From Yuukianura sp. NJ FZ-2021 (taxonomy: Eukaryota): a stretch of DNA of 64,000 nucleotides. Made by a program: the position numbers and the translations under genes. The DNA lies in contig CM102284.1 of NCBI GenBank assembly GCA_046563655.1, forward strand, positions 5,766,001 to 5,830,000, read 5' to 3'. Position 1 is the stretch's first letter; every line of letters starts with the position of its first letter. Positions 1,600-63,888 of this stretch are shown piece after piece. The notes beneath the pieces were generated by a model. That model searched no databases. It was not told the origin of the DNA and saw nothing but the letters and a program-made list of their open reading frames with translations.

Positions 1600-4355
1600 T
1601 TTGCAAGTTGGACGAAATTTGGAAGGTACGCTTTTTTGCAAAAGTTTTTTTTCACTAATTTGTGCCAAATGGTATTCCGCAACTTGAGCTGAGCGATGGA
1701 GTTTGTGTCAAAATTGAAACAGAAACTGAGGATTTTTATTGATATATCAATTGATATAACTTACACGCCGCATCAAAATCAATTCTCTTCTTTCATATTC
1801 TTTAGACAGAAATATATGGACACCCACAATCAAATTTTTAAACGTCGTGAGGATATAGCAAGAGAAAAAAGATATTTTTCACGACATTTTAATTGAGAAG
1901 TTTTTTCCAAAACGTTCAAAAAAGTGTTTAACCGCTCGTTTTAGATTTGCCAAGTTTGCTGGGATGCTGGAAAAGCTTTTCTAAAAGTGAAAACTGTTAA
2001 TTTTTTTTAATTAATTATGGAAGTTGATGTTGGTTATGAATGATTTTTTAGAATAAAAGAAATGCTACATTCTGCAAGTAAAAGTTATTTTAAGTTCATT
2101 ATTATTATTATTTTTAATGAAAGAACAGTGAACAGCGCTCGATCCGTAGAAATCGCTGGAGAATAAAAATTTTGGAAGTTTATTTCGGTGAAAGCGAAAC
2201 ATTTGTTTTGATCTGTTTAGACGCCAGTTAAAATTTAAAATCATTCAGTCCATGTTTTTCATACAGTTTTACCTTACTTGAATTGATTTATTTTTCATAT
2301 GGCTTTGAGATTAGAAAAGAAAATTAAATTAGTTTCATATTTATTTTAGTGAATTGGTTTTTTAACTAGAAATAATACTCTGATGAAACTTTGTTTGGAA
2401 AATTAACTTAAGCTTTTGAACATAATTTTAAATTAAGCTCCAATTTCTATCGTTTTCCTATTTTTTAAAATTAGACAAAATTTTGAAAGTGCACTGTTTT
2501 GTCTTAAACCGTTTTGGGCCAAATTACGGTTTATGAAATGTTATTTTGCAATTTGAGGCACTTTAGGTTAAATCGCGAACATTTTGAAAGTACGTTTTTT
2601 TTCTGTTGCAAAAATTTTGCACCAAATTATGCGAAAAGATGTGTTTGAGTGACGGAGGTACAACAGTCGCTGCAAATTTGAAATTGTTAGACTTTTCTAA
2701 ATTGGGAATTGTGCTTGTGTTTACGAAAATTTTGTCAAACAAAATTTGAAAATGCAATTTTTGCAATAAAGTGTGCGAAATTTTGTTCTGCGACTTCAAC
2801 TGGTCGATGGAGTTGGCAGAATTGCATCAAAGCTGGAATTTTTTGAATTTTGTAATTTGAGAAATTGGAAAGTGTCCGAAGTGAATTTGGTCGATTTGAG
2901 ATAGGGGATTATACGGAGCGAAAAGGTGAAAGGCAGATAGCTCCTCTCTGCTTTTGGGGCTATTGTATGGGAAGGCCGCCAGCGGGAAAAAGTTGAGGAA
3001 GGTGAGGAGCCTTTCTGACTCGCCTAATCTCCGCATAGCTCCGGACAGTTTCCAAGCAGAGCCTACCCCTCTGCAATGTTAAATCTCTTTCCAAAATTTC
3101 AGAAAATTAAAAAACTTTAAAAATTCATATCTCTTGAACGGATTGTGTTAGAGAGCTAATCTCTTCACACCTAAATTCACAATGATCATTAGAATATTTC
3201 AAGTCCAAAAAACCGAAATCGAAATTTTTACTAATTTTTAACAAAATCTCTTAAAATTTTTCAAATTTCATCAAAATTTTGAAGATGAATTTTTTGCGAA
3301 ATTTTTGCACCAAATTACATGAAATACATGAAATACTATTTTGGATCAATGAGCTGAGCGCTTGATCCACAGAAATTGCTGCAAAGTTGAAAATTCAAAA
3401 TTTTGCTCAATATAAGTGAAAGTTTTTTTATGATTTGGTTTAGACGCTAGTTAAAATTTAAAATAATTCTGTCTAAGTATTTTACACTGGTTTATCTAGC
3501 CTGAAATTATTAATTTTTTATACAACGTTGAGGAACTCTCTGAAAATTCGATTTCCCATTTTTCAAAAATTGATAAAATTTTTAAAATGTGTTTGGAAAA
3601 GTTTTAAAGCGAAGTGTTGTTTTGCAATTTGACTGCTGAATTTTTTAAAACGAGCATATTTTGAATTTGAATGTGCGTTTTTTTTTTTTTGCGAAAATGT
3701 TGCAGTAAATTATGCGAAAAGATGTTTTGCAACTTGAGTCGAGCGATGGAGTCACAGAAATCGCTGCAAGTTTGAAATTTTTAGAATTTTTTAAATGAGG
3801 AATTATGCATGTGTTTTTGGAAGTTTTTGAAAGAGTCTTTTGCATGGGAGGCCTTCGGGAGAGGCAAAAAGTAGATCGGAGATTATACGAAGCGAAGAGG
3901 CGAGATAGGTCTTTTGCTCTTGTGTGCTTTTTGTATGGGGAGGCCGCCAGCGGGAGAAAAGTTGAGGAAGGAGAGGAGCCTTTCTGACTCGCCTAATCTC
4001 CGCATAGCTCCGGACACTTTTTCAGAGAGCCTCCAACTTCACAATGGAAAATCTCTTTCCAAAATTTCAAAAAATACAGAAACTTTAAAAATTCATATCT
4101 CTGGAACGAAATGCAATAAATTGCTAATTCCTTCACCACTCAACTCAAAATGATCTCTAAAATATTTTAAGCACAAAAAACAGAACTCGAAATTATTAAA
4201 GAATTTTAACAAAATCCCTGGACTAAAGGCCATGGATTTTTTCAAATTTCATAAAAATTTTGAAGGTGCGTTTTTTTGCGAAATTGTTGCACCGGATTAC
4301 ATGAAAAACTATTTTGGAACAAAGCTGAGCGCTTGACCCACAGAATTCGCCGTAA
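1600..4355. repeat. Degenerate tandem repeat block, about three copies of a ~1.0-1.2 kb unit
   Basis: Recurring anchors: cgct(c/t)ga(t/c)cc..agaa at ~2136, 3359, 4330; ttagacgc.agttaaaatttaaaa at ~2217, 3440; GC-rich core aggccgccagcggga...ctcgcctaatctccgcatagctccggaca at ~2973 and ~3941. Confidence 0.85.
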
Positions 4356-46833: not shown

Positions 46834-49800
46834 AATGGCGAGTACAAGCAAAGTGGAAGTGAGGATATCGATTTCAAACATTCAAAATTCAGGCGTTACA
46901 CAAACCAAAGGTCAGAATGAGGCAAATCCCGTTGTGCAATCCTCAGGTCAAAGGCCAGAAACACCGCAAACTGGAACCACAACGTCAGTGAGCTCTTCAG
47001 CTTCCGCATCTTCCGCAGACAATTCGGCTCAAGCAAACTCATCAGCGTCAGTTCAAGTTCAACTGTTATATAACAAGGATCAAGAAAAAGTTGTCAAATC
47101 TGCTTCAGAACCTACTACAACGCAGCAAAAGCAACTCAAAGTTCCTGTCAAATCCGCTTCAGAACCTACTGCAACACAGCAAAAACAACTCAAAGGTCAA
47201 AAAAGTCCAGGTCAAGTTGACCAAAGCCAAAAAGGTCAAAAAGGTAAAGGTGCAACGTCATTCAAAATAAAATCGTTGTAAAATTTGTGCTAAATTTGAG
47301 CAAGGAAACTGAAATTCCAAATGTTTTTATTCGATTTTTTAAATTATTAGGAAACGATGCGAAGCCGGAGCGCGTTTCGCCTCAAACGAAAGGAAAAGGT
47401 CTGAGGAAACACAACAAGTTTAATTAAAAATTTCGCAATTAGGAATAAGTTACTTTAAAAAACGTGACCTTTGACATCAAATTGTTAGAACAAGAAAAAC
47501 CTTCAGGCTTGGACAAAACCGGAGTTGCTCTGTCAGATTTACCGCGCTATAAAGTCGGTAAGTGTGTTGTCGATTGGAACAAATTAAAATTTTTAGTTTC
47601 GACATTTCTCTGGATTTGCAGAAGATCCTGGAACAACTCCGCAGGTTTATGATCCACAGTTCAAAAACGATGCTTCTCGGCCAGGAACAGTATGGGATGA
47701 CACCAAATCCCCTGCGCAGACTCAGAAGAGTCCAAATTCCAATAAGATTCCAGTGCCCATGACAAGTACAGGTCAACCTGTCGAATCCAAGGGGTCAACA
47801 GAACCACCTAAACAACAGCCTGATCCGTCCAAGTTTCCAACCCCAAATGCTGCTGCCTCATCTCAGCCACCACCAACAAATGACTCCAAATTAACAAAAA
47901 AGAACTCCAGTGAAACACCAGCAGTTGGATCCAAGTTAGCCAAGAAGAATTCCAGCGAACCTAAACCGAAGAATGTGCCAGGATTCCCCAAAAATCGAAC
48001 TCTCGGCAAATCAGCGTCAAATCCCGAATCCAAACGTCGCAGTTTAGAAGTTCTTGGGACAAATTCAGGTCAACCGGCAGATCCAAAGGAAGGAAACCTA
48101 TCCCAAGCGTCACCAAAAGAAAAACTTGATCGTCCAAAGCCTCCTCGTCAAAATTCTGGTGAACAGTCGACTGAAGCATCACCAACTTCATCGAAGTTGC
48201 CAATAAAAATTCCCAAAGGAACCAATGCGAAGACTCCAGCCCAAAGCGAATCAGCGTCAAGTCGATCATCAAATCCCAATACCAAAACTACTGGTTTCGA
48301 AACGCCTGCGGAAAGCTCAAGTCAATCTGCCGGATCAACAAGGTCACCAAAAGAACAGCGTACAGGTCAAAAGTTTCTTACGGGAAATGCTGGCTCGACT
48401 CAGCCAGCATCATCAACTGAGTCCAAGTTAGCCGCGGAGACTCCCAGTGAAAGTCTAACCCTCACCGAATCCAATTCAAGTCCATTCACAGTTCCCGACT
48501 CCAAGCGTCCTAAAAAACCTAATCTTGGTAACGCCCTTTGGAAACAAATAATTTTTTAATTTTGGAAGTGAAGGTCAAAGGTCAAAACTATTTAAAAAAC
48601 GCGTTTTCTAGGAACAGAGCCTTCCAAGTCCGATTCTCAAGAAAGTATATGGACCAAAATAAGCAGGAATGACGCAGTAGAAACAAAAGGCGACAAAAAT
48701 GCAAAAAGGCAACTTGGAAATTCCAAGGAACGTCCTGGAGTGGACGCTGAAACGAACACTGCCAAGCGTACTGAAAGAGTCTCATTCGACGGAGCTGACA
48801 AAAAAAGTCCAAAACCCGGTACAAATTGAGTTCTATACAAACAATTAAATTTTGAAAATTCAAAAATTGTGTTTTTGAATTTTGAATTTCGTTAACAGGT
48901 AAAACCTCCAACGGAAAAAACTTGGCTGACACGGCTCGTAAAAAACGAGGTTCTCACGACAATACACACTTTTTGGACGAATGCGCAGGCGAAGAAGCTG
49001 AGGTCGACGAAGGTGAAACGTCAAGAAATTTTGAAAAATGTTAAACCATTTGAACAAACTAGCTAATTCCTAGTTTTTCTGATTTAAAGATGCTGTTCGA
49101 GATTTTCTAGACTCGAATCCCATATTTCTGAATTCCTTTGTGGATGAATTTGTTGACCGCACAACAATTTTAAACTGGATTCATTGCAAATCTCCTCCAA
49201 CTGACAAGGGAAAGAAACGCAGAGGGTCAAAAGGTCAAGGAGGAGATGCAGTGGCTAAAGACAAAAGGAAAACAGAGAAAAGAAAATCAGTTGAAGCTGA
49301 GACAGAAACGACTGACGCCGCCTCGAAAGTTGACGAAAGGAAAAAATCCAAGAAACGAAATGACGCTTCTGAAACTGAAGAAACGACAGCGTCAGAATCA
49401 GTGTCAGACTCTGAGATTGACAATAAAAAGTTAAGCGAAAGAAAAGAGAAACGGAAGAACTCTACTGAAGATCCGGAAACGCCAGAAACACCGTCAATCA
49501 CTGACATTAACGACATTGACAGCGAGAAATCAAAGACAAAGAAGCGTAACAGTGGTAGCCAAGCCGTAGATGATGATGATAATGATGAAGCAGAGAAGAC
49601 ACCCTCAGAATCTGACGTTAACATTAGCAACATCTCGAAATCTACCAAAAACAAACGGGATGACGACACTGAAACTCCGGAAACTACGTCAACCACTGAC
49701 ATCAACGACAAAAAGGAGTCACGGAAAAACAAACACAAGCGAAATAGCAAAACTGAAACTGCTGAACCGGCAGACGCTGAGCCCAAAGACAGAAAAAAGT

Positions 49801-51038
49801 CCAAAAAAAAGAAACATCGTAAAGCCGACGACACTGACAGTGACGCTGAAGCTGAAACAGACGCCGATACAGATGAAAAAAAGGAACGTGATGCTGATAA
49901 CCAGAATGCTTACGAAGATGACAACTGCGACTGCCACCCTCAACCTCTACCATACTTTTCCGCTTGTGTCGGCAACGTCGCTATTCCAATTCCGTGTCCT
50001 CGTCCACCTCAGCAGTGTGCTCCGCCGCCTCGGTATTCAACGCCAAATCATTTTTGGACTAAATGTTTCCCTTCAAAATTAAAATGTTGTTTCTATAGGC
50101 CCAAAAAGTGCAAAACCCACGGTCGTTCCAAAGGCCACCATCGAAAAAAACAAGAGCGAAGTCCTGACGACGAAGGTGACAAAGACGAGGACGACACGCC
50201 ACGACGTTCCAAAAAGGATCACCGTAAAGAAAAACGACGTACTGAAGAAGACACCGCGGACGACGATGATCCACCCGCCAAAAAGCAGCATCGCAAAGAA
50301 AAAGAGCGTAGCGATGAAGATGCTGAAGACGACGAAGATCCGCCGCGTCGTTCTAAAAAGCACCACCATAAGGAAACACAGCGTAACGATGACGATACCG
50401 AGGATGAAGACGATAAGCCGCGGCGTTCCAAAAAGCACCACCGTAAGAAAAAACAGCGTACAGACGAGGATACTGAGGAAGATGATGACAGGTTAGCTTC
50501 TAAATTTTTTCTTGGTAGTTTAGCTTTCTGTAAACTTCTAAAATTTGTGGAATCCGTTAACAGCCGGACTTCAGGCGCAAAATCTTGGAGTGATTCGAAG
50601 TCGCAGGCAACAGAGACAACAGAAGCTCCACACAATTGTGGTCCAGCTCAAGCCGACAGAAACTGGAAACGGGGAAAGAAAAAGTGCCCTGCTGGAGGTG
50701 CTGGAGCTCGTTGTTCTCAACCAATGATGAACGATGCAGAAATTGAGTGCTTCAAGAATCTGTACGGAATTGACCTCCGACAGGTTCGGCTCTAACATGG
50801 TAATTTGGAGAAAGGTTGACCTTGACCCGAAGTCATAATTATAATTTGACCTCACTAACAGTGCCAAGCAGTTTGCTCCTCTTGGGCTTGTGATGTCGCA
50901 CTTCAAGAGACGCATAACATGACCGAGCAGGAACTGGACAATTTTGAGAACCTTTTCAATCTAGACCTGCGTGAATGCCTGGACAGATCAATCCAGTCTT
51001 TACGAAATTCCAGATTTCAAAATTCAAGATTTTTTTAA
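46834..51038 (+). CDS. Large multi-exon low-complexity protein of unknown function
   Basis: ORFs at 46823, 47753 and 49140 linked by GT-AG introns; S/T/P/K-rich then D/E/K/H-rich repeats; final exon 50862-51038 ends RFF*. Splicing of the small middle exons is only partly verified. Confidence 0.6.
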
Positions 51039-51103: not shown

Positions 51104-53160
51104 TTACGTAAAATCAGAAGTAGTATCGTTTTCATCCTCATCTTGTCTCAGAGAGAGATGATTCCTGTCGGGAACTTCCTTCGGTTCAAAGATGGCTTCA
51201 ATTTCACCTGAATTCAAATTTCTTGTTTCTGGAACACAGAAAATGACAAAGAAAACCGACAAGAAAGAAATTCCAGCGTAGAACCAAAACGTTCCATAAG
51301 TGTCAAAGACGTCAATCATGTTTAAAAACGTTTTGACAGCAACAAATTGACAGCACTGACAAAATCCAATTGCAATTGCCGATGAAACTCCACGCATGTC
51401 ATTTGGAGACAACTCAGTTACCAGGAACCTAAAACCAAAATTGAAAAAAATTGACCTTTGACCTGACATGCTTAGTTGTAACTAAAAATCGCAAATGTTT
51501 ACCAAGGAATGACTCCGATTCCAAAGCTGAAAAACGAAATGTAGGTAAGGAGACAGGCCAGTGGCACCCATTCTAGGCTCTGTGAATTCAGTTCCACAAT
51601 GATACTGCGACTGAACTCGGTAGAATTTCCAGTATCTCCAGCCATCACTTCGCGCAAGTAAAAATATCCACCAAGGACTCCAGTAGAAAGACTCATCAGA
51701 AGACCTAAAGTAAACAAAAACGATTTTTTTTTGTGAAACATTTCGCTTTGTGGTGCATAAAAACTTACCAGAAGAAATTAGAAGGACTCGGCGTGGAAAA
51801 AACTTGACAAGGAATAGAGCCATGAATGCCGAAAACGCACGAACCACTCCGATTGCAATCGTTTGCAGGGAATCATCCAGCCAGTTGTTGGCGTAGTTGA
51901 AAATCAGCGTAGCGTAGCAAATAATCCTGTAGTGACAATTTTTATAAACGTTTACATGTAACAATTTTCAGTTAATTCAATTTGTTAAGTACTCACGGGT
52001 ATATTCCAGAGAATTGTTGAAAAATGAACATGATGCATCCAATTGCCAAAGGTTTGAGGACAGCCATGTCCGTAAATCTTGAACAAGATCTTGAAAATGA
52101 ATTCCGCCTCACCCGTTCCTTCAGATACTGAAGTCGCATACATTCCTGTTCAGCTTCTTCACGATCGTTCCGGAGCCACGCTAAAGATCTGAGTGCTTCT
52201 GGTTGTCTCCCTAGGTTAATCAAATTATCAAAAATTATGATTCTATTGATTGATATTGCCGATTAACGGAGCGATTAACATACCTTTGGCTATGAGCCAA
52301 ACCGGGCTTTCTGGTAAACACAAAGTGTAAATAAGCACAAAGATAGGAAAGAAGCTGCAGATGTAAGCAGCAGTGTGCCAACGACTGATGCTACCCACGC
52401 AGTAAATACAAAGAATTCCAAGAGAAACCATCAGCGTCGGAAGTGATCCAGCGACGCCACGAATGGTCGGAGAAGTAACTTCACAAATGTATACCTGCGG
52501 AGTAAATTTCAAAAATCGGAACAATTTTCTTCTAAAACCTTCAACATTTTGTTTGAATATTCGAACATGCATCAAGAAACAGTTCGAACCTGAACAGCAG
52601 AACTGTAAGAACCAGAAGCCAACCCCGTGAGGACTCGGCCCATCAAAATTTGCCTGCAATTCAAACTAAACGCTGAAAATACTTCGGAACACTTTTTAAA
52701 ATTAGAAGAATTAAAGCAGATAAATGTTAAAAGTGAACTTTTACATTAGCGTTTCAGCACGGGCAATACAAATCCATCCAACACAAAATACAACTGATGC
52801 CACGATGATCGTTTTCTTACGGCCAATCCAATCAGACAAGAATCCACCGAAGAGTGCACCTAGTATGCAACCGATGTAAACCAAACTAGCAACCCACGAC
52901 AGATCGTCATGCGTCACTCTAATCTCCGACTCTTCATCATTCATCAGTTCTGGAATTGTGAACGAAGAGTATCCCATGATCGTTCCAGTTGCAAACAAGG
53001 ACAGTGTTACCCCCGCCACAGTCAGCACCTTCAAATCAATTTTCAATTAGTTAGTTGCTAACATCTTGAAAAATTTGTGAAATCAGTGACATTAACGTAC
53101 CTGGTTCCGGTGGTGGAGGTAATCCGCCCGCTCAATAAGCGGAATCTGTTCTTTCCTCAT
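51104..53160 (-). CDS. Tret1-like MFS sugar porter (paralog a)
   Basis: DWIGRKK, YICEVTSPTIRG, PESPVWL, QQFSG, IPW, VPETR motifs. Confidence 0.9.
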
Positions 53161-53543: not shown

Positions 53544-54394
53544 TCAGAAGCCATCAGATGCTCCACGGCTGCTCTTGATGGAGGCTCGGTCACGTTTTTG
53601 TCTTAAACGTTCTCTGGCTGCTTTCTCGGCTCGTTTTCTTAGTAAATCTGCAGTTTCGGGAGTAGGTTCGGCGGCTTTAACTGGTTCACAAGATCGGATG
53701 AGTTCTCGTATTTTTTCAAGGGCATCGGCAGTATTCATGTGTTGATATCTAGTTCGATCCGAAGCAACAAACATGTACCCGTCCTTCGTTATCCAACTCC
53801 GAGCCTAAAAATGACAAAATGAACATGAGGATTCAAAATTCCAAGGACGAAAAGAATTTTATAAAGGCAGTCGCCCGCCCGGTATACACTGGAAGTGGAA
53901 ATGCGTGTAGCATCCCTGAAGTTGTTACCTTAGATTTCATGATGTTTCGGATAGATTCAGGAATCCAATCTGCCGAATCCACATGGAACCTCACTTCAAC
54001 TTTTGTATTGACCGTATTTACGTGTTGACCGCCTGGACCACTACTTCGGCAGTGACTGATCTTAAGACTTTCTATAAACACAAATAAGAATACTTTAGTT
54101 TTAAGACAGAATCCATAATTCAATTTAAAATTATGCAAACTCACCCATTGGGATATATCCGGAAAATACTTCATCACCATTTTGTGGAACCTAAAATAAT
54201 GTAAGTTAATAATCAACATTCAGTTCATCAATCAAGCATTTAACTATTGGATTTCTTACCGTAGGCTTCTTAGCAATATTTAGTGTACTGTTTGGATACA
54301 GTTTGTCAAGGGAGATTGAACTTTTGTAAGCACTGAATTGTATACCAGAACTAGCACAGGAAAGCAATCGACGATGAATACTACTAAGCGCCAT
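53544..54394 (-). CDS. ICT1: Mitochondrial peptidyl-tRNA hydrolase ICT1 / mL62
   Basis: YKSSISLDKLYP, RSSGPGGQHVNTVNTKVEVRF, SDRTRYQHMNTADALEKIR, basic C-tail. Confidence 0.95.
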
Positions 54395-56549: not shown

Positions 56550-57176
56550 ATGCTACCATCTTACGCTGCGTCTAGCTTTACCTTAACGTCGAATTTGCAA
56601 GAGGCCGGATCCTATTCTATTCTGTCACGGCTCAAGAACGTTCGGGTTGCCGACGACGTGCAGGGGCATTCTCCGCCACAGTCACCCGTCCCAAGGAATC
56701 CTATCATGGAAACATCAGCAGTCATCCCCAGCTTGAATCTGAATAGCATCGGACCCGGAGCCAGCTCATTGCCGTTCTTGAGTTACTCGGCTGCCACTGC
56801 AAGCTTGCAGTGTACTGTCAGGCGTGAGGAAGAGCCATATCGAGAACGTGATTCATCTGTTTCACGAGTCTCGCGATGCACCACAACAGCTCGAGCCAAA
56901 CGTCGGGGTTCTACTACCGCACCACAGCAGTTCTACAATTCGGCTCAACGTCGCAAGGATCAGGACCGGAAGAACGATAAAGGATGTTCGAGAGACATGG
57001 GTGTGCCGCGCGTTTCACTTGCTCCGCCTCCTCCACGTCCTCGACCACCTAAATATATTTCACTGATTCCTGGAGAAGAGCCGTTTCATCCGAACATGTT
57101 ATTCATTTTGCAAATGGAGATTCAACGCGGATTTATTGGAAACATCATTGAAGAAATGGCAATGGGAAAGGATTAA
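56550..57176 (+). CDS. Orphan 208-aa Ser/Pro/Arg-rich protein
   Basis: Uninterrupted ORF after a canonical 5'UTR intron (~56424-56514); no recognised domain. Confidence 0.55.
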   Translation: MLPSYAASSFTLTSNLQEAGSYSILSRLKNVRVADDVQGHSPPQSPVPRNPIMETSAVIPSLNLNSIGPGASSLPFLSYSAATASLQCTVRREEEPYRERDSSVSRVSRCTTTARAKRRGSTTAPQQFYNSAQRRKDQDRKNDKGCSRDMGVPRVSLAPPPPRPRPPKYISLIPGEEPFHPNMLFILQMEIQRGFIGNIIEEMAMGKD

Positions 57177-57790
57177 GCTCACTCCAACGTGTCGGATTCG
57201 TAAGTTCAACTTGATTCAATCGAAACGTATTTACGTATTTATCTTCCTGCCCAACCCTTCTGTTTAAAGTAGCAACTTCTGTTTTCACTAATTTTCTAAT
57301 ATCTAGTAGGTTAGGTCTTTAAAAAAATATAATGTTGCAAATTAATTTATGTTTCTTAGAGCAGAGAATCGACTCACACAAAGTGTTTTATGCCACTCTT
57401 TTAAGTAATCCAACGTTTAATTCAAGCAATCTAACTTTTCCTGAAATTCTACAATAAAGATTAAGATTTATATGATGCTGAATTGTCAAGTTTTAAACTC
57501 CTCCATTTGCTTCTACCGCAACACAACAACGTAAAATTTTGTTTGGATACAAAAGCGAACTTTTAGTACTAAAAATGGAGGAAAAATGGTTTGAAATGAG
57601 TTGTTCTCGGTACTTTGCGAAGTTATCAAAAATTTGATCTGCGTCTGCGTCAGTTTTGCAAGGCGTATCACTGGACAGTGACTTGGAAATCTAGACAAGA
57701 GGTAATTGAAATGCTAAACTTTAGAAACTTTTATGGAAAAGGCACAACGTTTGCTCTGGATTCTTTGCAGGTTCCAAAACATTTGAAGAG

Positions 57791-58060
57791 ATGCTGATCT
57801 TTTTCTGGGATTCGGGAAATCTTATAGTCGAAGCATTCCAATTCGCGACGTGGATGATCATTTGGCTTTTAATCATAATGTGCACGTACAATTTGGTCAT
57901 AATCCTGATGAACCATCTCCGAGATACGCTGATTCTCTATGCAGTACTATTCATCATTTACATTGTACTGAAGCTCTACTACTGCAGCTATTACGACTGT
58001 TCTTCCACTGCCAAAGATGGACAGGGGTGGTTTCCATTTTGGGGTGCGTCTCCTAAATGA
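57791..58060 (+). CDS. Small 89-aa two-TM membrane protein
   Basis: Two hydrophobic helices, upstream GT-AG intron 57702-57770, AATAAA just after the stop. Confidence 0.5.
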   Translation: MLIFFWDSGNLIVEAFQFATWMIIWLLIIMCTYNLVIILMNHLRDTLILYAVLFIIYIVLKLYYCSYYDCSSTAKDGQGWFPFWGASPK

Positions 58061-58201
58061 ATCTAAATAAATTCCACACTCCACTAGCGTAAGATTTTCA
58101 AAATTCGTGTTTTAGAATTTAATCGATAAAAGGATTTTATGAGAGGTTTGACTTAACATTTCCATTTGAATTTGGATAAATTTTCAGAACGATGCAGCAG
58201 T

Positions 58202-58821
58202 TCAGTCAAGAAGGGAGCCTCGTCGTGGTCGATAGGGTCCATATTGGAATTGTTCTGGAACCGGTGCACCAAATCCTTCCTTGCGATAAAACCCCCAATC
58301 TTCCAGGATTGAATTGCATTCGGCTCTTGACTTATCCCACAGAGGAATGGACTTTAGAATTTTATCATCATGGTTCAGTAGTAGAAGAATCGTTTCTTGG
58401 TCACCGCCATCTTCTAAGGTCAAATTGTGGCTAGAAATAAAAACAAAATGACAAAAAAACAGACACTATCAAGCTTGAGCCTTATGCAGTTTCAGTTCCT
58501 TAGGCATTTTGGAGCTGGTAGCTCAAACTTTAGAATTTATGACGCTAACTTACTAAAGGGGCAGATCCTGGTCCAGAAACGCATATACTTCTGGACGATG
58601 CTTGAGCTCACATGTGATGCACGTTGACTGCAAAGACACCAAAAACAATCAGTAGAATCTCTGATCTTCGACTTCTGACTCTAAATGAAACCAACCTGGA
58701 CAACTGCTCTCATGACATCTAAATCCGTAGTAGGGATTCCCGGTAATCTGCTTGGAGTGACTCTCATCAACGCTCTGGAAACTCTTGGATTTGCACGCAT
58801 CCTGGATCGACCACACCCCAT
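58202..58821 (-). CDS. Selenoprotein M-like thioredoxin-fold protein, Cys homolog
   Basis: Exons 58821-58696, 58627-58554, 58430-58202 give RAVVQSTCITCELKHRPEVYAFLDQDLPLYHNL...IPL..KSRAECNSILEDWGFYRK...VPEQFQYGP, matching the SelM pattern. Confidence 0.85.
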
Positions 58822-61123
58822 CTCTTCGCAATTAATCAAACGTTACCTGAAAACCCAAATTAATCGTTTGTCCAATGAAGGAACATCAAAAAATTTTATT
58901 CAAGCATCTCCTCCAGTAAATCAATGTTACTAGTTTGCGTTTACCTGATATTGTCTGTCCAGGTTCCGGAAACCTTACAGTACACCGTACAATCAATCAT
59001 AGTTGAGTCACTGGAGAAATCATTAATTGAAAAACACTGATCAGTTTCTTCTATCGTTGCATTTTTTTGGAATTCAGAAATTCAAATGTCAAAGTGAAAT
59101 TGCAAACGAAATTTTAAATTGAATGTTGAATAGCACCTCAATTCAAATTTTTTCCCGCTATTTGCTCCCCACCCAGGCAAAGAGTAGATGTGGCGAGAGG
59201 TGAGGAAGCTTTTTGCTCCGCATAATCCCCGCATAACATCCGGCCAAAATCGAGGGTACACTTTTTGGATAGCAGTCTGCACGACACGCAAAAATCAACG
59301 CAAATCAGACTGTGCTGCGTTCTCAACTGACACTTACTGTTTTCCCTGCACTGCGTTATATTATTATTTAAGTGGCGGAAACATGCAATAATCAATGACA
59401 CATTCGTAATGTCATCATAATAATTACGACCCTCAACTTATTCCCTTCATTTCTACATTTCAATTAAGTAATTACTGAAATGTGCTTCATTTCCTACGCT
59501 CTTGCGTCCAAATTCAAGCAATTTAAACCTTAGGTTTAATATTAGGTTAGAAATTAGTTGAAAATCAATTAAAAACTTTTCGATCGTCAAACCGAGTTTA
59601 CTTTAGTGCTTACGGAACTTGTGGCAGAAAAGCAGTTGAGTTGAGGTGTCAAGTTTTGTGAAAGCTGAATTCATACTGCAGAACTACAAAATATTTCAAA
59701 ATTTTCAATTCATTTTAGTTTAAAATTCAGAATTAAAAAAATGAAGAATTAAGAATTTAGACAGTTTTTTCTTCGAAGGTTTTGTAAGCAAAAATATGGA
59801 ATCCAAAATTATGAAAATTTCATACGGAATGGACATTAAGCAATTTTGTATTTTTGTTGTTGAAAAGCCAATTGGATATTAAAAAGACTATTAATAGAGG
59901 GATTTATAGTTTAACCTTCAAATTAACTGTTCTCATGTGCAAATTTTTTGGATTGCGTTAGGTTTAGGTCTAACCTATTAGAGGTCACAAAAGGGCAGAG
60001 GTCAAGCCCTTCAAAAATCAAGCTTCATAAAAATGTTTATCAAGAGGGAAAGTGGCAAAAATGTTAACTCAAGGGCTCAATTTCCACGTTCGTGACCTTA
60101 AAACTTTTCAAAAAATATTGAATTTTGAATAAAAGTTAGAGACTGGAGGTCATTCCAGCATACTCTCCTGCTCATAAAAGTAACAAAAATTGTTGACCTC
60201 TGACATTGACTATCGCTACTCAAGGCCGTATAAAATGAATGGAAAGAGTGTGCTCCTCACTGTTGCTAAGTGACACGCGCGTGGGCAATCCGCTTCTGAC
60301 CGGGGATTAGTTCAGAAGCACTGACTTTGACCAGTGATCAGCAAGCCAAAGCTTGAGACTTTAAGCTCCTCGGAAATTAAAATCTGTTTCTAGCGGTTTA
60401 CGACTAGCTGAGATCCTTCAACCTTCAAATTCTCAAAAATCTGAAATTTTGAATTTAGCGAATTTGAAAAAAAAAGTTTCCACTAATTAAAATACAATGC
60501 CAAATTCTCCAACTTCTGGATGTTTTTAGGACTTTGTTTTCGAACAGCAATTGAGGTCATGGAATCTTAAGAATGATGAAATTGTGTGAATGGTATTGGA
60601 TATGCCAATGGTACAAGTTTTAGTGAAGAGAATAATTAACTGCGGAGTTAATTAACTTTTGAATGCTTTAGCAGATGCTGTAATATTCCAAAATCATACG
60701 ATTGACGTCTGATCCAAAACTACTTTGATGTAGAAAGAAGAGACGCAGTTGACATAAGCCGCTTGGACCAGAAGTGGCTGTCTAATCCTCAGAAACCGTA
60801 TAAATACACGATCAAAAGATGCTATCGGTTTCCAAAGGAAGAACTCCTCCTTCAGTAAATTTATAAACCAAATCCACTACTTTTAGGACTTTGTCAATTT
60901 AAATCGTAGGACTTTTTTAAAAGATAGAACAAATCTTAAGGCTTTTGAATAAAACCCAGTTGGACATAACAAGCGGAAGCAATAAACGAGGCTTTTATGT
61001 ACATGACTGGAAAACTTATTTAAAAACCAAATTTTGAAAGAATTTAAAAAGCGGAGAAAGCGTTAAAGTGAGAGAAAGTTGGAAGGCGAAGTAGTAGCTG
61101 CGAAGAAGCGATTTCTAAAAAAT

Positions 61124-63888
61124 ATGAAATTGAAGACTAATAATGCGGACGAAGAGCGTCACGCTACGCGGAAAGATGGAAAGAGATATCCCAGTTTTCA
61201 CCAGGTACAGCAAAACTCCCAGGTCAAAGGTCAAATACTGCCTTGACAATCCTTTCTTCCTAAAACCGAACCTTCCTGATGACCATGCGTCCAGAATTCC
61301 AAAAATTTCAGCAAAGTTGCGTCAAAATTTTCAACTTGACTGAATTCACACGTAAGATGGGTCAAAGGTCAAATCCACGAGGTTGTCTAAAATCCTTGTA
61401 CCCCTGCCATTGAACCCGTGAAATCCTGAATGAATTCTTGAAATCCTGAATTTCAAATTCTTTCGGTTTTTCCATTTTCCTCCTCAAGGTCAAAGGTCAT
61501 GCAATCCTTAACTCCTATGTCCACTTTTCTTGCAAAAGCCAAAATTTTGCCAAGGAAAGCTCCTTTTTCCAATAGAGATCCGTCCAAAAAACCTATTTTC
61601 CAAGAAAAATCCAAAAATTTTGGAATAAAGTTCCATGAAACACCTAACTAAAGAAATAAATTTTTAAAATCGCTGTTTTTTAATTTGTAGCTGATAACGG
61701 TAGCTGGAATTTCGATGAGTTTATTTGCAACGGGTAACATCACTGGATTTTCGTCTGTAACGACTTACCAACTGACACAACCAGGAGCGTCATTACAAGC
61801 AGATCACGATGATCTGTCATATATAGGTAAGAAAAATTCACAAAATTTTTGTATTACAAAATACAATTTTTCTTTTCCTAAAATCCAAACTATTCTTCAA
61901 AATTTTCACCTCTTTCACCATATTTGATGTTCCAAGAGGTTGATGCTACACAGTTTCATTTCGTATCCAATTGTACAAAGTGTTGTGCTTGTGACCTCAA
62001 GTGAAACTGAAACTGAATTGAACTGATTTTGATTTCAGCGAGCTTGGTAACAGTTGGAATGTTCATCGGAACGCTAGTCGGGGGTGTCGTGGGAGATGTA
62101 CTGGGTCGACGCAGAACAATTATGATGAGTTCAATCCTCTTCTGCGGTGGTTGGATTATAATTGCTTTTGCATCGGACGTTTGGCACATTCTTATGGGAC
62201 GACTTATGACCGGAGCTGCTAGTGGAATCTACTCAACAACTGTTCAAGTAAGAGGATTAAACGATTAAACTTAAACCCAAACAGAAGTTGACCTGTGACC
62301 TCGTAAGATTAGTAAGAAGAATACTTGAGGTCAAAGTGTAACGCGTTCCGTGTTTGGGTGAAAGTCGGACCCGAAATGTTGACGTTCACTTCATGCAACT
62401 TCTAAAACTTTCTTTTTCAGTTTATAATTTTCGAAATTCTAATTTTGATTTTTTTTAACAGTGTTACATTTGCGAAGTTGTGGACAAGAGTATTCGTGGT
62501 GTTAGCGGGTCAATTCCAACGTTGATGGTGTCACTCGGGGTCATTTGTATGTACACCTTCGGAAGTTTTTTCAACTGGAGAATGCTGGCTCTCGGATCAA
62601 GTATTTTCCCACTCTTCGTTTGCTTCTACACTTTCTTCCTTCCGGATTCACCATCTTGGCTGATTAGTAAAGGCAAGTATGCCGAAGCAGTACGATCTTT
62701 GACATGGCTCACAAATGACGCCGAAGAAGCTGAGGAAGAAGTTGCCAAGTTGACGCGAATCCGAGAACGTCGTCAATCTCTTTCGCATTGTGCACCACCT
62801 TCGCAATTTCAAAAATTCAATCTACGCACATTCATTAGCCGATTTTCGGAACGTTCTGTACTTCATCCACTTGGAATCGGTGTGGCGCTGTTCTTCTTCC
62901 AGAAATTTTGTGGCGTTTCGTCAATCACTTTTTACGCAACACTGATTTTCAAGGTAAGTTCACCAAACAAAGAGAATTTCCGAGCGACATACTTTCTTTC
63001 TGGAAAAAAAAATTTATGCAGGTTGACTAATCCTCAGAATTGACCGATTTTTTTTTAATTTCCGCAGTACGCTGACAGTGAAATCAATGACTACGTTCAA
63101 ACAATTGTAATTGGTTTCGTACGACTCATCGCAACGTTAGTAAGCGTTTTTCTAATCAAATTTTACCGCCGACGTGTTCTGCTCATCACTTCCGGTTTGA
63201 TGATGTTCGCATCCAATGGAATTCTTGGAGGCTACTTTTACCTTAAAGCGAACTATGCGCATGTCGTATTTGCCAACGGTACTGGCACTGATGCTGCTGG
63301 AAACGAAACGATATCGATCATCCACAGTGCTCTAAGGTCACACAGTCTGGATTGTCTACCCCTCATCTGTGTCACAGTTTTCATGATCTTTTCATCAATT
63401 GGATTTGGAATTATTCCATTTTTCTTAGGTAAAGACAGAAAACTTTGAAATTTCGAAATATTTGAGACAAATTTTAAACTTTTCTTGCTTTCTTTTCAGT
63501 TGTGGAACTTTTGCCAACTGATGTCCGAAGTATCTCTACTTCGTTTGCCTACGGATTCTGTCAACTGTGTCAATTCATTGCTGTAAAAACGTTTCTGAAC
63601 ATGCTGGATACACTGAATACTTACGGAACATTTTGGTTCTACGCTGCAGTTGCTTTCTGTGGAGCCTTGTTCGTGGCTCTCTGTGTTCCGGAAACATCTA
63701 ACCTCAATTCAGCCCAAATTGAAAAACTTTTTGAACCTAAAGACAGCGGACTTTCTTCTGGAGAAAGTAGCAACACAAGCAGCGATTTTGAAGATGATGA
63801 GGAAGATGATAAAGTCCCGAGTTCCAAAACACCGCTAATCAAATCCAAGGGAATTGAAGTTGAGTACGGGTCAAGTTCCAAAGTATAA
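61124..63888 (+). CDS. Tret1-like MFS sugar porter (paralog b)
   Basis: DVLGRRR, YICEVVDKSIRG, PDSPSWL, QKFCG, VPETS; shares intron positions and long peptide blocks with paralog a. First exon 61124-61204 is inferred from splice phase. Confidence 0.9.
61221..61499 (+). promoter_or_regulatory. Three nuclear receptor DR1 elements in intron 1 of transporter b
   Basis: AGGTCAAAGGTCA at 61221 and 61487, GGGTCAAAGGTCA at 61359. Confidence 0.6.

What the first reader, a model, noticed from the sequence alone, without database searches (positions are those of the whole stretch)
58202..58821. SelM homolog with CITC instead of CxxU, no signal peptide, and an MGCGRS lipidation-type N-terminus
Seen: three exons (only partly in the ORF track) splice to a 142-aa protein starting MGCGRSRMRANPRVSRALMR; an in-frame TAA lies 8 codons upstream of this ATG; the active site is TGC-ATC-ACA-TGT (CITC); the C-terminus is RRGSLLD. 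Known: SelM/SELENOF proteins are ER-lumenal with a signal peptide, and SelM has CxxU and an HDEL-like end; MGCxxS is the N-myristoylation plus palmitoylation consensus, common on plasma membrane and ciliary proteins. Inference: an ER selenoenzyme family member re-routed as a Sec-free, membrane-anchored cytosolic or ciliary redox protein.
Basis: partly seen in the sequence, partly recalled or inferred. Interest (0 to 1): 0.75.

Follow-up and report, generated by a model that had tools for sequence, protein, structure and literature searches.

The report
SelM-like redox protein without ER signals
A small cysteine-using relative of selenoprotein M has lost both signals that keep its relatives inside the endoplasmic reticulum and instead begins with a conserved lipid-anchor-type motif, so it probably works outside the ER, most likely tethered to the cytosolic face of a membrane.

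Summary
Three minus-strand exons with GT-AG introns splice to a 142-aa protein that starts MGCGRS, carries CITC and ends RRGSLLD. An in-frame TAA lies 8 codons upstream of the ATG. It is a true SelM-family thioredoxin-like protein: exon 3 matches mouse SelM (2A2P) at E 5.5e-8, and the spliced protein scores 112 bits against a profile of SelM-family members.

A syntenic orthologue on metagenome contig L001 has the same three exons, the same start (MGCKNS), CITC and no ER-retrieval end. Synonymous sites between the two are saturated, while exon 1 shows a coding pattern of change (pN/pS about 0.3). Gly2, Cys3 and Ser6 are each kept through different codons. Neither protein has a hydrophobic signal-peptide core, and neither locus has a credible upstream signal exon. 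In contrast, 39 of 48 SelM hits end in [DE]L.

Leaving the ER is therefore well supported. N-myristoylation plus palmitoylation is the best reading of the N-terminus but is not shown. The main rival is a mitochondrial presequence, since the first 31 residues are basic with no acidic residue. No RNA data and no whole genome could be consulted. Verdict: a new variant of a known family, of moderate interest.

The parts
58696..58821 (-). Exon 1 coding part: 42 codons. It covers MGCGRS, a basic stretch without acidic residues (residues 1-31), and the first SelM-homologous residues (32-42, TDLDVMRAVVQ).
   Evidence: The profile alignment begins at residue 32. The orthologue L001 4621-4746 aligns without gaps, with codon-position identity 28/42, 36/42 and 16/42.
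58804..58821 (-). Codons 1-6, Met-Gly-Cys-Gly-Arg-Ser: a dual-acylation-type start (Gly2, Cys3, Ser6, followed by Arg7).
   Evidence: In L001 Gly2 is GGT against GGG, Cys3 is TGC against TGT, and Ser6 is AGT against TCC. It is the only 1 of 1404 open ATGs in the window with this pattern.
58843..58845 (-). In-frame TAA 8 codons upstream of the ATG. All three frames hold a stop between the acceptor-like AG at 58847-58848 and the ATG.
   Evidence: and direct reading. L001 has its own in-frame TAA 5 codons upstream of its ATG.
58628..58695 (-). Intron 1 (68 nt, GT..AG, phase 0).
   Evidence: The position and phase are the same in L001. Identity falls to 49% with gaps.
58554..58627 (-). Exon 2 (74 nt): STCITCELKHRPEVYAFLDQDLPL plus the first two bases of the next codon. 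The redox motif CITC lies at 58610-58621.
   Evidence: Pfam Sep15_SelM match to profile positions 5-24, 16.9 bits, below the cut-off. Own profile gives 19.0 bits, E 1.8e-4. L001 has TTCITC in the same place.
58431..58553 (-). Intron 2 (123 nt, GTAAGT..TAG, phase 2).
58202..58430 (-). Exon 3: the rest of the thioredoxin-like domain and the C-terminal tail ending RRGSLLD, then TGA. There is no [DE]L retrieval end.
   Evidence: phmmer against mouse SelM 2A2P gives E 5.5e-8. There are 49 library hits. Own profile gives 64.8 bits. No GT occurs between the GPY codons and the stop, so no further coding exon can be spliced on after the conserved GPY (direct reading).
58118..58123 (-). Candidate ATTAAA polyadenylation signal, 79 nt after the stop. 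This is inferred only.
   Evidence: Direct reading. The hexamer's meaning is recalled and was not tested.

Best explanation
This is an intact, selected gene for a Cys-type (CxxC) member of the SelM family of thioredoxin-like thiol-disulfide oxidoreductases that no longer enters the secretory pathway. The N-terminal signal peptide and the C-terminal ER-retrieval motif of its relatives are both gone. In their place the protein starts Met-Gly-Cys-x-x-Ser-(Arg/Lys), followed by about 25 basic residues with no acidic one and a Pro-rich linker.

Proposed mechanism, all steps inferred. Met1 is removed, Gly2 is N-myristoylated co-translationally, and Cys3 is S-palmitoylated at a membrane. The basic stretch adds electrostatic binding to acidic lipids. 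The linker (residues ~22-32) tethers the thioredoxin-like domain (residues ~33-125). Its CITC site then faces the cytosol and exchanges disulfides or reduces oxidised thiols of membrane-proximal proteins, recycled by the cytosolic thioredoxin or glutathione systems.

Shown: gene structure, family homology, Cys not Sec, absence of both ER signals, and conservation of the start and the motif in one orthologue. Inferred: lipidation, membrane location, and the direction and targets of the redox activity.
For: Family: exon 3 matches mouse SelM 2A2P at E 5.5e-8 over residues 2-70. The library search gave 49 hits at E<=1e-3, of which 48 are SelM-like. The spliced protein scores 112.3 bits (E 8e-37, single target) over residues 32-137 against a profile built from 6 homologues. 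Five of those 6 pass Pfam's Sep15_SelM cut-off; P0041 scores 24.7 against 26.

Real and selected: L001 is an orthologous locus. Its downstream convergent neighbour is also conserved (L001 5456-5668 against window 57785-57997, 55% by tblastx). L001 has exons of 126, 74 and 220 nt with the same splice positions. Between the two species pS is 0.77-0.85, which is saturated. pN is 0.24 for exon 1, 0.31 for codons 1-31 and 0.20 for codons 43-136. Exon 1 has no gaps and shows third-position decay (16/42 against 36/42 at second positions), while flanks and introns are 48-54% identical with gaps.

Start codon: translated similarity begins exactly at the ATG (L001 4621 = window 58821). Both loci have an in-frame TAA just upstream.

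No ER entry: the highest 10-residue Kyte-Doolittle mean in the first 35 residues is 0.38 (window) and 1.01 (L001). For the six full-length homologues it is 2.70-3.22 in five and 1.65 in P0024. No signal-like ATG ORF lies in the 3.7 kb upstream on this strand. In L001 only 487 bp separate the ATG from the end of a 297-codon exportin-like ORF on the same strand, and none of the 10 ATG ORFs there looks like a signal peptide.

No ER retention: 39 of 48 SelM hits end in [DE]L. Eight of the 9 exceptions are vertebrate-type sequences that diverge right after the APAKP/SPAK point, which looks like gene calls running into an intron. The ninth is P0002, the closest relative, which ends GPYKPR. The window protein ends SLLD and L001 ends RSFH.

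Lipid-anchor motif: Gly2, Cys3 and Ser6 are kept through codon changes, and residue 7 is Arg or Lys. Chance rate is 1 of 1404 ATGs. Met-Gly-Cys is necessary and sufficient for palmitoylation-dependent membrane-domain targeting of Src-family kinases (PMC2200018, abstract passage). A myristoylated form of another thiol repair enzyme, MsrA, is a precedent (PMC6316033, passages).
Against: No transcript, protein or lipidation data exist for this gene. None could be obtained here: no RNA run was listed.

Only one orthologue with DNA was found. Exon 1 is 29/42 identical overall, so joint retention of three residues is expected about one time in three to five without any motif-specific constraint.

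The first 31 residues (7 K/R and 0 D/E in the window; 6 and 0 in L001) also look like a mitochondrial presequence.

Met8 is conserved in both species, so translation from a downstream ATG, or a transcription start downstream of Met1, would remove the motif.

The myristoylation pattern used is recalled, and no dedicated predictor was available.

Pfam itself could only be run on single exons, and none reached the family cut-off.

The organism was not identified, so NMT and DHHC specificity in it is assumed.
Confidence: 0.5

Rival explanations
1. Mitochondrial SelM-like protein. Residues 1 to about 30 are a cleavable presequence (or an intermembrane-space or outer-membrane targeting segment), and the CITC domain works in mitochondria. 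A mixed version would give two isoforms, acylated from Met1 and imported from the conserved Met8, as is known for MsrA.
For: The first 31 residues have 7 K/R, 0 D/E, 5 S/T (window) and 6 K/R, 0 D/E, 6 S/T (L001). Residues 12-22 can be drawn as a helix with Arg13, Arg16 and Arg20 on one face (direct reading; highest helical moment 0.79). Met8 is conserved in both species. MsrA is a precedent for mitochondrial and myristoylated forms from one gene (PMC6316033, passages).
Against: The helical moment is not above shuffles of the same residues: 12% and 10% of 1000 shuffles reach it. The stretch holds 3-4 prolines. Presequences usually drift fast, yet this segment is as conserved as the catalytic domain at saturated synonymous divergence. 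A Gly2-Cys3-x-x-Ser6-basic start would probably be acylated co-translationally, which normally does not go with matrix import (established knowledge, recalled). No targeting predictor was available.
Confidence: 0.2
2. Soluble cytosolic or nuclear CxxC oxidoreductase. The ER signals were lost, but the MGC start is not modified, and the basic N-terminus serves another purpose, such as nuclear or nucleolar localisation or partner binding.
For: The evidence for leaving the ER is the same as in the main reading. The Arg-rich N-terminus is also compatible with nuclear or nucleic-acid binding. Motif retention in one further species is statistically weak.
Against: The start fits every position of the recalled NMT consensus in both species, including the preferred Ser6 and a basic residue 7. 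The positions that vary (4, 5) are the ones the consensus leaves free. Such a start is rare by chance.
Confidence: 0.15
3. The 5' end is mis-modelled. A signal-peptide exon further upstream, constitutive or alternative, splices into an acceptor inside exon 1, so the protein is an ordinary ER or secreted SelM-like protein.
For: No RNA evidence could be consulted. Several AG dinucleotides lie inside exon 1. Signal-peptide exons are short and poorly conserved, so tblastx could miss one.
Against: Codons 1-31 evolve as coding sequence in this frame (pN 0.31 against pS 0.85; no gaps). Similarity starts exactly at the shared ATG. There are stops in all three frames just upstream. No signal-like ORF was found upstream in the window or in the 487 bp available in L001. 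The ER-retrieval end is missing in all three members of the clade, which an ER protein of this family would be expected to keep.
Confidence: 0.08
4. A decaying duplicate of a canonical SelM-like gene, either a young pseudogene or an unconstrained copy, whose odd ends are just drift.
For: The clade sits on long branches (P0002 end branch 1.99), and the C-terminal tails differ among the three members.
Against: The reading frame, all four splice sites, CITC and the family's conserved blocks are intact in two species whose synonymous sites are saturated. pN/pS is about 0.26-0.36 throughout. A third member, P0002, keeps the same exon-3 blocks.
Confidence: 0.04

Closest known systems
Selenoprotein M (SELENOM; mouse structure PDB 2A2P)
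   Same: Same thioredoxin-like domain: E 5.5e-8 over 69 residues of exon 3. The redox motif sits in the same place with two residues between the redox-active positions. The HN, GFYRK, VPE and GPY-type blocks are kept.
   Different: Cys replaces Sec and no SECIS was found. There is no signal peptide and no C-terminal ER-retention signal, both of which the reviewed literature gives as features of SELENOM (PMC10650576, passages). The start is of the N-terminal Met-Gly-Cys type.
Cys-type invertebrate-style SelM-like proteins (library hits P0012 with CDGC and P0020 with CSGC)
   Same: CxxC instead of CxxU. The stretch before the motif is very similar (..VVRAVVES.. against ..VMRAVVQS..). The total length after GPY is the same as in P0012. 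Both pass Pfam Sep15_SelM.
   Different: Those proteins have a strong hydrophobic N-terminal core (2.92 and 2.70 against 0.38) and end RDEL or EDL. In the tree the window clade is separate from them.
Selenoprotein F / Sep15
   Same: It shares the same Pfam domain family (Sep15_SelM). It is also ER-lumenal and also lacks a KDEL-type end (PMC10650576, passages).
   Different: Sep15 has a signal peptide and an N-terminal Cys-rich UGGT-binding domain, which is absent here. No Sep15 structure chain was matched at E<=10, whereas SelM was.
Met-Gly-Cys dual-acylation N-termini of Src-family kinases
   Same: Gly2, Cys3, Ser6 and a basic residue 7. That motif drives myristoylation plus Cys3 palmitoylation and membrane-domain targeting (PMC2200018, abstract passage).
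   Different: The resemblance is in a targeting signal only, with no homology. Here it is attached to a redox domain, and lipidation has not been tested.
Myristoylated cytosolic methionine sulfoxide reductase A
   Same: A thiol-based redox enzyme whose family is otherwise organelle-targeted. One form is myristoylated and membrane (late endosome) associated (PMC6316033, passages).
   Different: The fold and chemistry are unrelated. In MsrA the forms arise from alternative starts of one gene. Here the non-ER form appears to be the gene's only product, as far as DNA alone can tell.

Membership tests
Sep15/SelM redox domain family (Pfam PF08806) | Significant match to the family profile over the whole domain. 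| tested here: inconclusive
   Pfam could only be given single exons. Exon 2 scored 16.9 bits (cut-off 26, E 0.0066), and exons 1 and 3 gave no hit. The spliced protein could not be handed to the Pfam tool. Proxy tests are clearly positive: 2A2P at E 5.5e-8, and 112 bits over residues 32-137 against a profile of 6 homologues, 5 of which pass Pfam's cut-off.
Sep15/SelM redox domain family (Pfam PF08806) | CxxC/CxxU (SelM) or CxU (Sep15) redox motif at the start of the domain. | tested here: met
   CITC aligns with CDGC and CSGC, and with the CGG(U) position of other members. It is identical in L001.
SELENOM proper (ER-lumenal selenoprotein M) | N-terminal signal peptide. | tested here: not met
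   The highest 10-residue hydropathy mean in the first 35 residues is 0.38, against 2.70-3.22 in five of six full-length homologues. No upstream signal-like exon was found. This is a hydropathy scan only; no SignalP-type predictor was available.
SELENOM proper (ER-lumenal selenoprotein M) | C-terminal ER-retention or retrieval signal. | tested here: not met
   The protein ends RRGSLLD. 39 of 48 family hits end in [DE]L. L001 ends RSFH and P0002 ends KPR.
SELENOM proper (ER-lumenal selenoprotein M) | Selenocysteine (in-frame TGA) with a SECIS element in the 3' UTR. | tested here: not met
   Both redox positions are Cys codons (TGC, TGT). There was no Rfam match at E<=1 in 57000-60000. Cys homologues are accepted family members, so this bars 'selenoprotein' but not family membership.
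N-myristoylated and S-palmitoylated (Met-Gly-Cys) proteins | Gly2 after the initiator Met, an allowed residue at 3, a small residue (Ser preferred) at 6, and no Pro at 7. The pattern is recalled. | tested here: met
   MGCGRSR in the window and MGCKNSK in L001. It is 1 of 5 such starts among 1404 open ATGs in the window and the only one with Cys3.
N-myristoylated and S-palmitoylated (Met-Gly-Cys) proteins | Translation really starts at this Met, and lipids are really attached. | not testable with these tools
   No RNA run was listed. There are no proteomic or labelling data.
Mitochondrial presequence proteins | A basic N-terminus free of acidic residues that forms an amphipathic helix. | tested here: inconclusive
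   The composition fits (7 K/R and 0 D/E in 31 residues). The helical moment of 0.79 is reached by 12% of shuffles, and in L001 0.73 is reached by 10%.

The most novel reading that the evidence does not exclude
An old, conserved lineage of the Sep15/SelM family has been moved out of the ER lumen. The signal peptide and the retrieval motif were both dropped, and a Src-like Met-Gly-Cys dual-lipid anchor plus a basic patch was acquired. The result is a CxxC thioredoxin-like enzyme sitting on the cytosolic face of membranes. It would be the first member of this family outside the secretory pathway. A second, mitochondrial isoform from the conserved Met8 is possible.
Probability: 0.45. Interest if true: 0.6.

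Novelty: new variant of a known kind. Interest (0 to 1): 0.5.

Why it matters
In the passages read here (PMC10650576), Sep15 and SelM are described as ER proteins with N-terminal signal peptides. Their proposed roles in disulfide handling during protein folding and in calcium homeostasis are all framed in that compartment. A conserved member that has lost both ER signals shows that the fold has been reused in another compartment. It would also be a natural Cys-only, easily expressed form for studying the chemistry of the family. If the Met-Gly-Cys start is lipidated, it adds a membrane-tethered thiol oxidoreductase to the short list of acylated redox enzymes. It would also give a clear example of retargeting by exchange of terminal signals. 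Three full-text searches found no paper describing a SelM or Sep15 relative that is acylated or lies outside the ER. The library is limited to open-access papers and preprints.

Tried and rejected
RNA evidence: the look-up of sequencing runs on 58150-59500 listed no RNA holder.

Whole genome: none is held for this window. The search for a separate canonical SelM or Sep15 could not be made. Within the 64-kb window no second SelM-like ORF exists: of 3296 six-frame ORFs only the exon 2 and exon 3 ORFs score.

Word-index protein searches found nothing: exon 3 against longer proteins, exon 3 against similar lengths, and the exon 1 alignment.

Earlier-findings look-ups by place, sequence and words returned nothing.

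More orthologues were sought in genome contigs and viral contigs, with no result.

L002 from the metagenome scan is a chance match: 23 residues, 63% G+C, and no profile hit.

Pfam on single exons was sub-threshold or blank. The spliced protein is not a contiguous window sequence, so it was not given to Pfam, structure prediction or fold search, and no 3-D model was made.

The Rfam scan of 57000-60000 was blank.

The helical-moment test for a presequence was not significant.

A possible fourth exon carrying a KDEL-like end was considered and rejected. No GT donor lies between the conserved GPY codons and the stop, and the tail has the same length as in P0012.

The acceptor-like TTTTCAG at 58847-58853 was considered as an entry point for an upstream coding exon and rejected, because all three frames hit a stop before the ATG.

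The organism was not identified. The flanking Sugar_tr genes and short introns say only that it is a eukaryote, probably an invertebrate animal.

Full report
**1. What is in the sequence**

The gene lies on the minus strand.
- Exon 1 runs from the ATG at 58821 to 58696 (126 nt, donor GTTGGT).
- Exon 2 runs 58627-58554 (74 nt, acceptor ..TTTGCAG, donor GTAAGT).
- Exon 3 runs 58430-58202 (229 nt with TGA, acceptor ..TTTCTAG).

Joined in a script, they give 142 codons and a stop (one search had my wrong exon-2 end and was corrected). The protein starts MGCGRSRMRANPRVSRALMR, has TCITC encoded by ACG TGC ATC ACA TGT, and ends RRGSLLD. Translating 58845-58696 shows a TAA, seven codons, then the ATG.

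Just upstream there is an acceptor-like TTTTCAG (AG at 58847-58848). All three frames run into a stop between it and the ATG, so it could only join a non-coding leader.

**2. Family**

Pfam could only be given single exons, because the spliced product is not a contiguous window sequence.
- Exon 2 (21 aa) hit Sep15_SelM at 16.9 bits, below the cut-off of 26.
- Exons 1 and 3 gave nothing.

Other tests are clear.
- Exon 3 (76 aa) matches mouse selenoprotein M, PDB 2A2P, at E 5.5e-8 over residues 2-70. No Sep15 chain appears at E<=10.
- A scan of 1.84 billion representative proteins gave 49 hits at E<=1e-3. One of them, P0003, is a 782-aa repeat protein matched only on 19-residue stretches, and I set it aside. 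The other 48 are SelM-like.
- Of the 11 hits I gave to Pfam, 9 pass the Sep15_SelM cut-off, P0041 is just below it (24.7 bits), and P0002 has no hit.
- I built a profile in a script from six full-length hits: P0012, P0020, P0037, P0024, P0038 and P0041. It scores the spliced protein at 112.3 bits over residues 32-137.

So residues 32-42 of exon 1 already belong to the conserved domain, and residues 1-31 stand where relatives have a signal peptide and spacer. Among 3296 six-frame ORFs of the window, only the exon 2 and exon 3 ORFs match that profile, so there is no second copy within these 64 kb.

The two redox positions are Cys codons. No SECIS or any other Rfam family matches 57000-60000 at E<=1.

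**3. An orthologue**

The closest library protein, P0002 (54% identity), is evidently a gene call on the exon-3 region of a relative. It ends GPYKPR.

A scan of metagenome contigs with the P0001/P0002 alignment returned two loci. L002 is a chance match: 23 residues, 63% G+C, and no profile hit.

L001 is a real orthologous locus.
- It has exons of 126, 74 and 220 nt with the same splice positions and the same kinds of splice sites.
- The convergent neighbour downstream is also conserved: L001 5456-5668 (minus) against window 57785-57997 (plus), 55% identity by tblastx.
- Its protein starts MGCKNSKMRGNPRVSRAV, has TTCITC, and ends RKRSFH.

No further orthologue was found in the prokaryote-genome or viral collections, or by word-index searches.

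**4. Is exon 1 coding from this ATG?**

Between the window and L001 the proportion of synonymous differences is 0.77 in exon 1 and 0.78 in codons 43-136. That is saturated, so dS cannot be computed.

| Region | pN |
|---|---|
| Exon 1 | 0.24 |
| Codons 1-31 | 0.31 |
| Codons 43-136 | 0.20 |

These values come from Nei-Gojobori counts.

- Exon 1 aligns without a gap, and identity by codon position is 28/42, 36/42 and 16/42.
- The upstream flank, both introns and the 3' flank are 48-54% identical with gaps.
- Translated similarity starts exactly at the ATG (L001 4621 against window 58821). Nothing upstream of it is shared.
- Each locus has its own in-frame TAA shortly before the ATG.
- Gly2 (GGG/GGT), Cys3 (TGT/TGC) and Ser6 (TCC/AGT) are kept through codon changes. 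Residues 4 and 5 differ, and residue 7 is Arg or Lys.

This shows that residues 1-31 are translated in this frame and are under constraint.

It does not show constraint specific to the motif. Exon 1 is 29/42 identical overall (18/31 in residues 1-31), so three given residues would all be kept in roughly 20-35% of cases anyway.

**5. Absence of the ER signals**

The highest 10-residue Kyte-Doolittle mean within the first 35 residues is 0.38 for the window protein and 1.01 for L001. For the six full-length homologues used in the profile the values are 2.92, 2.70, 3.22, 1.65, 3.04 and 2.83. P0024, at 1.65, looks cut at its N-terminus.

On the gene's strand, the 3.7 kb upstream (to 62500) holds no ATG ORF that looks like a signal peptide. 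The two most hydrophobic candidates either contain an Asp in the hydrophobic run or lie inside the opposite-strand transporter gene.

In L001 a 297-codon open frame on the same strand ends at 4133. The language-model atlas places it with exportin-family C-terminal regions (score 0.96, a lead only). That leaves 487 bp before the ATG, and none of the 10 ATG ORFs there is signal-like.

At the other end, 39 of the 48 SelM hits finish in [DE]L.
- Eight of the nine exceptions are vertebrate-type sequences that diverge right after the APAKP/SPAK point. This is what a gene call running into an intron would give.
- The ninth is P0002.

The window tail after GPYRP is as long as the tail of P0012 but reads RRGSLLD instead of ending in RDEL. 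No GT lies between the GPY codons and the stop, so a further coding exon is excluded.

The passages I read in PMC10650576 state that SELENOM and Sep15 are ER proteins with N-terminal signal peptides and that SELENOM carries a C-terminal ER-retention signal. Loss of both signals in two species, and of the C-terminal one in a third, is best explained by a real change of compartment.

**6. Phylogeny**

I built a maximum-likelihood tree from the two spliced proteins and 27 of the 48 hits. I left out 21 rows that are mostly vertebrate-type fragments or mis-called forms: P0004-6, 8, 10, 11, 13, 14, 16, 18, 21, 25, 28-32, 34, 35, 43 and 45.

The tree groups P0002 with the window and L001 proteins (support 94/90). 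It puts this clade next to a divergent group whose members end in RDEL, or KDEL in P0017 (P0017, P0023, P0027, P0041, P0042; support 93/90), apart from the CxxC/CxxU forms. The alignment has only 118 columns and some branches are long (P0002 1.99), so I take from it only that the three form a lineage of their own.

**7. What the N-terminus means**

Met-Gly-Cys followed by Ser6 and a basic residue 7 fits the N-myristoylation consensus (recalled). It also fits the Met-Gly-Cys motif whose Cys3 is palmitoylated in Src-family kinases. There the motif is necessary and sufficient for targeting to caveolar membrane domains (PMC2200018, abstract passage).

In this window, 5 of 1404 ATGs with eight open codons fit the pattern at Gly2. 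Only this one also has Cys3.

The next 25 residues carry 7 Arg, no Asp or Glu, and 4 Pro (L001: 6 K/R, no D/E). This suits a basic membrane-binding patch plus a flexible linker.

The same composition is typical of mitochondrial presequences. Residues 12-22 can be drawn as an amphipathic helix, but its helical moment (0.79; 0.73 in L001) is reached by 12% and 10% of shuffles.

Met8 is conserved, so a second product starting there cannot be excluded. MsrA is a precedent for a redox enzyme with both mitochondrial and myristoylated forms (PMC6316033, passages).

**8. Verdict**

| Claim | My probability |
|---|---|
| The gene is real and selected | about 0.93 |
| It is a Cys-type SelM-family oxidoreductase | about 0.95 |
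| Its main product does not enter the ER | about 0.85 |
| It is N-myristoylated, probably palmitoylated, and membrane-tethered on the cytosolic side | about 0.5 |
| Mitochondrial targeting | about 0.2 |
| Soluble, unmodified protein | about 0.15 |
| Missed signal-peptide exon | about 0.08 |
| Decaying copy | about 0.04 |

Nothing bears on a ciliary location.

Three literature searches turned up no description of a SelM or Sep15 relative that lies outside the ER or is acylated. The passages I read in PMC3473315, PMC2500217 and PMC2375036 list which organisms have SelM or Sep15 but do not treat this question. I did not open the supplements of those papers, and they may list Cys homologues.

I rate it a new variant of a known kind, interest 0.5. 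It is a clean and testable case of a protein family changing compartment. However, it rests on two loci from unidentified organisms and has no expression data.

Noticed in passing
window 57785-57997 (+), within ORF 57725-58060; L001 5456-5668 (-): A small ORF rich in hydrophobic residues converges on the SelM-like gene, with 3' ends about 140 bp apart. It is conserved in L001 (55% identity by tblastx, 106 bits) and has no Pfam match. It is probably the last exon of an uncharacterised membrane protein gene.
   Followed up: partly
window 51104-53046 (-) and 61691-63888 (+): Two multi-exon genes of the Sugar_tr (MFS sugar transporter) family flank the region on opposite strands. Four exon ORFs hit PF00083 at E 1e-24 to 3e-10. 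They look like paralogues.
   Followed up: partly
window 53833-54219 (-): This ORF carries a GGQ-type motif and an RF-1 domain hit at 34.6 bits, just under the cut-off of 35. It is probably an exon of a mitochondrial peptidyl-tRNA hydrolase / release-factor-like gene.
   Followed up: no
window 49083-50795 (+): A 570-codon open frame, very rich in Lys, Glu, Asp, Ser and Thr with repeated KK..RK..TE motifs, has no Pfam match. It may be a low-complexity, possibly nuclear or secreted, protein.
   Followed up: no
L001 3243-4133 (+): A 297-codon ORF resembles exportin-family C-terminal regions by language-model features only (0.96), with no Pfam hit. It has no counterpart in the window, so synteny upstream of the SelM-like gene is broken between the two species.
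   Followed up: partly
library proteins P0023, P0027, P0041, P0042 (and P0017): These form a divergent SelM-like group with a signal peptide (where the N-terminus is present) and an RDEL end (KDEL in P0017). In the alignment they lack the CxxC/CxxU pair; P0041 has a single Cys there. In the tree the group is the nearest neighbour of the window clade.
   Followed up: partly
library proteins P0024, P0037, P0038, P0047: P0024 and P0037 show W at the Sec position (CGGW, CSGW). P0038 and P0047 have that stretch skipped. These look like artefacts of gene calling over an in-frame TGA, meaning they are probably true Sec forms.
   Followed up: no
window 58798-58800 (Met8) and 58711-58713 (Met37), minus strand: Two further in-frame ATGs in exon 1 are conserved in L001. 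Met8 has A at -3 in both species. Alternative initiation would give a product without the Gly2/Cys3 start.
   Followed up: no
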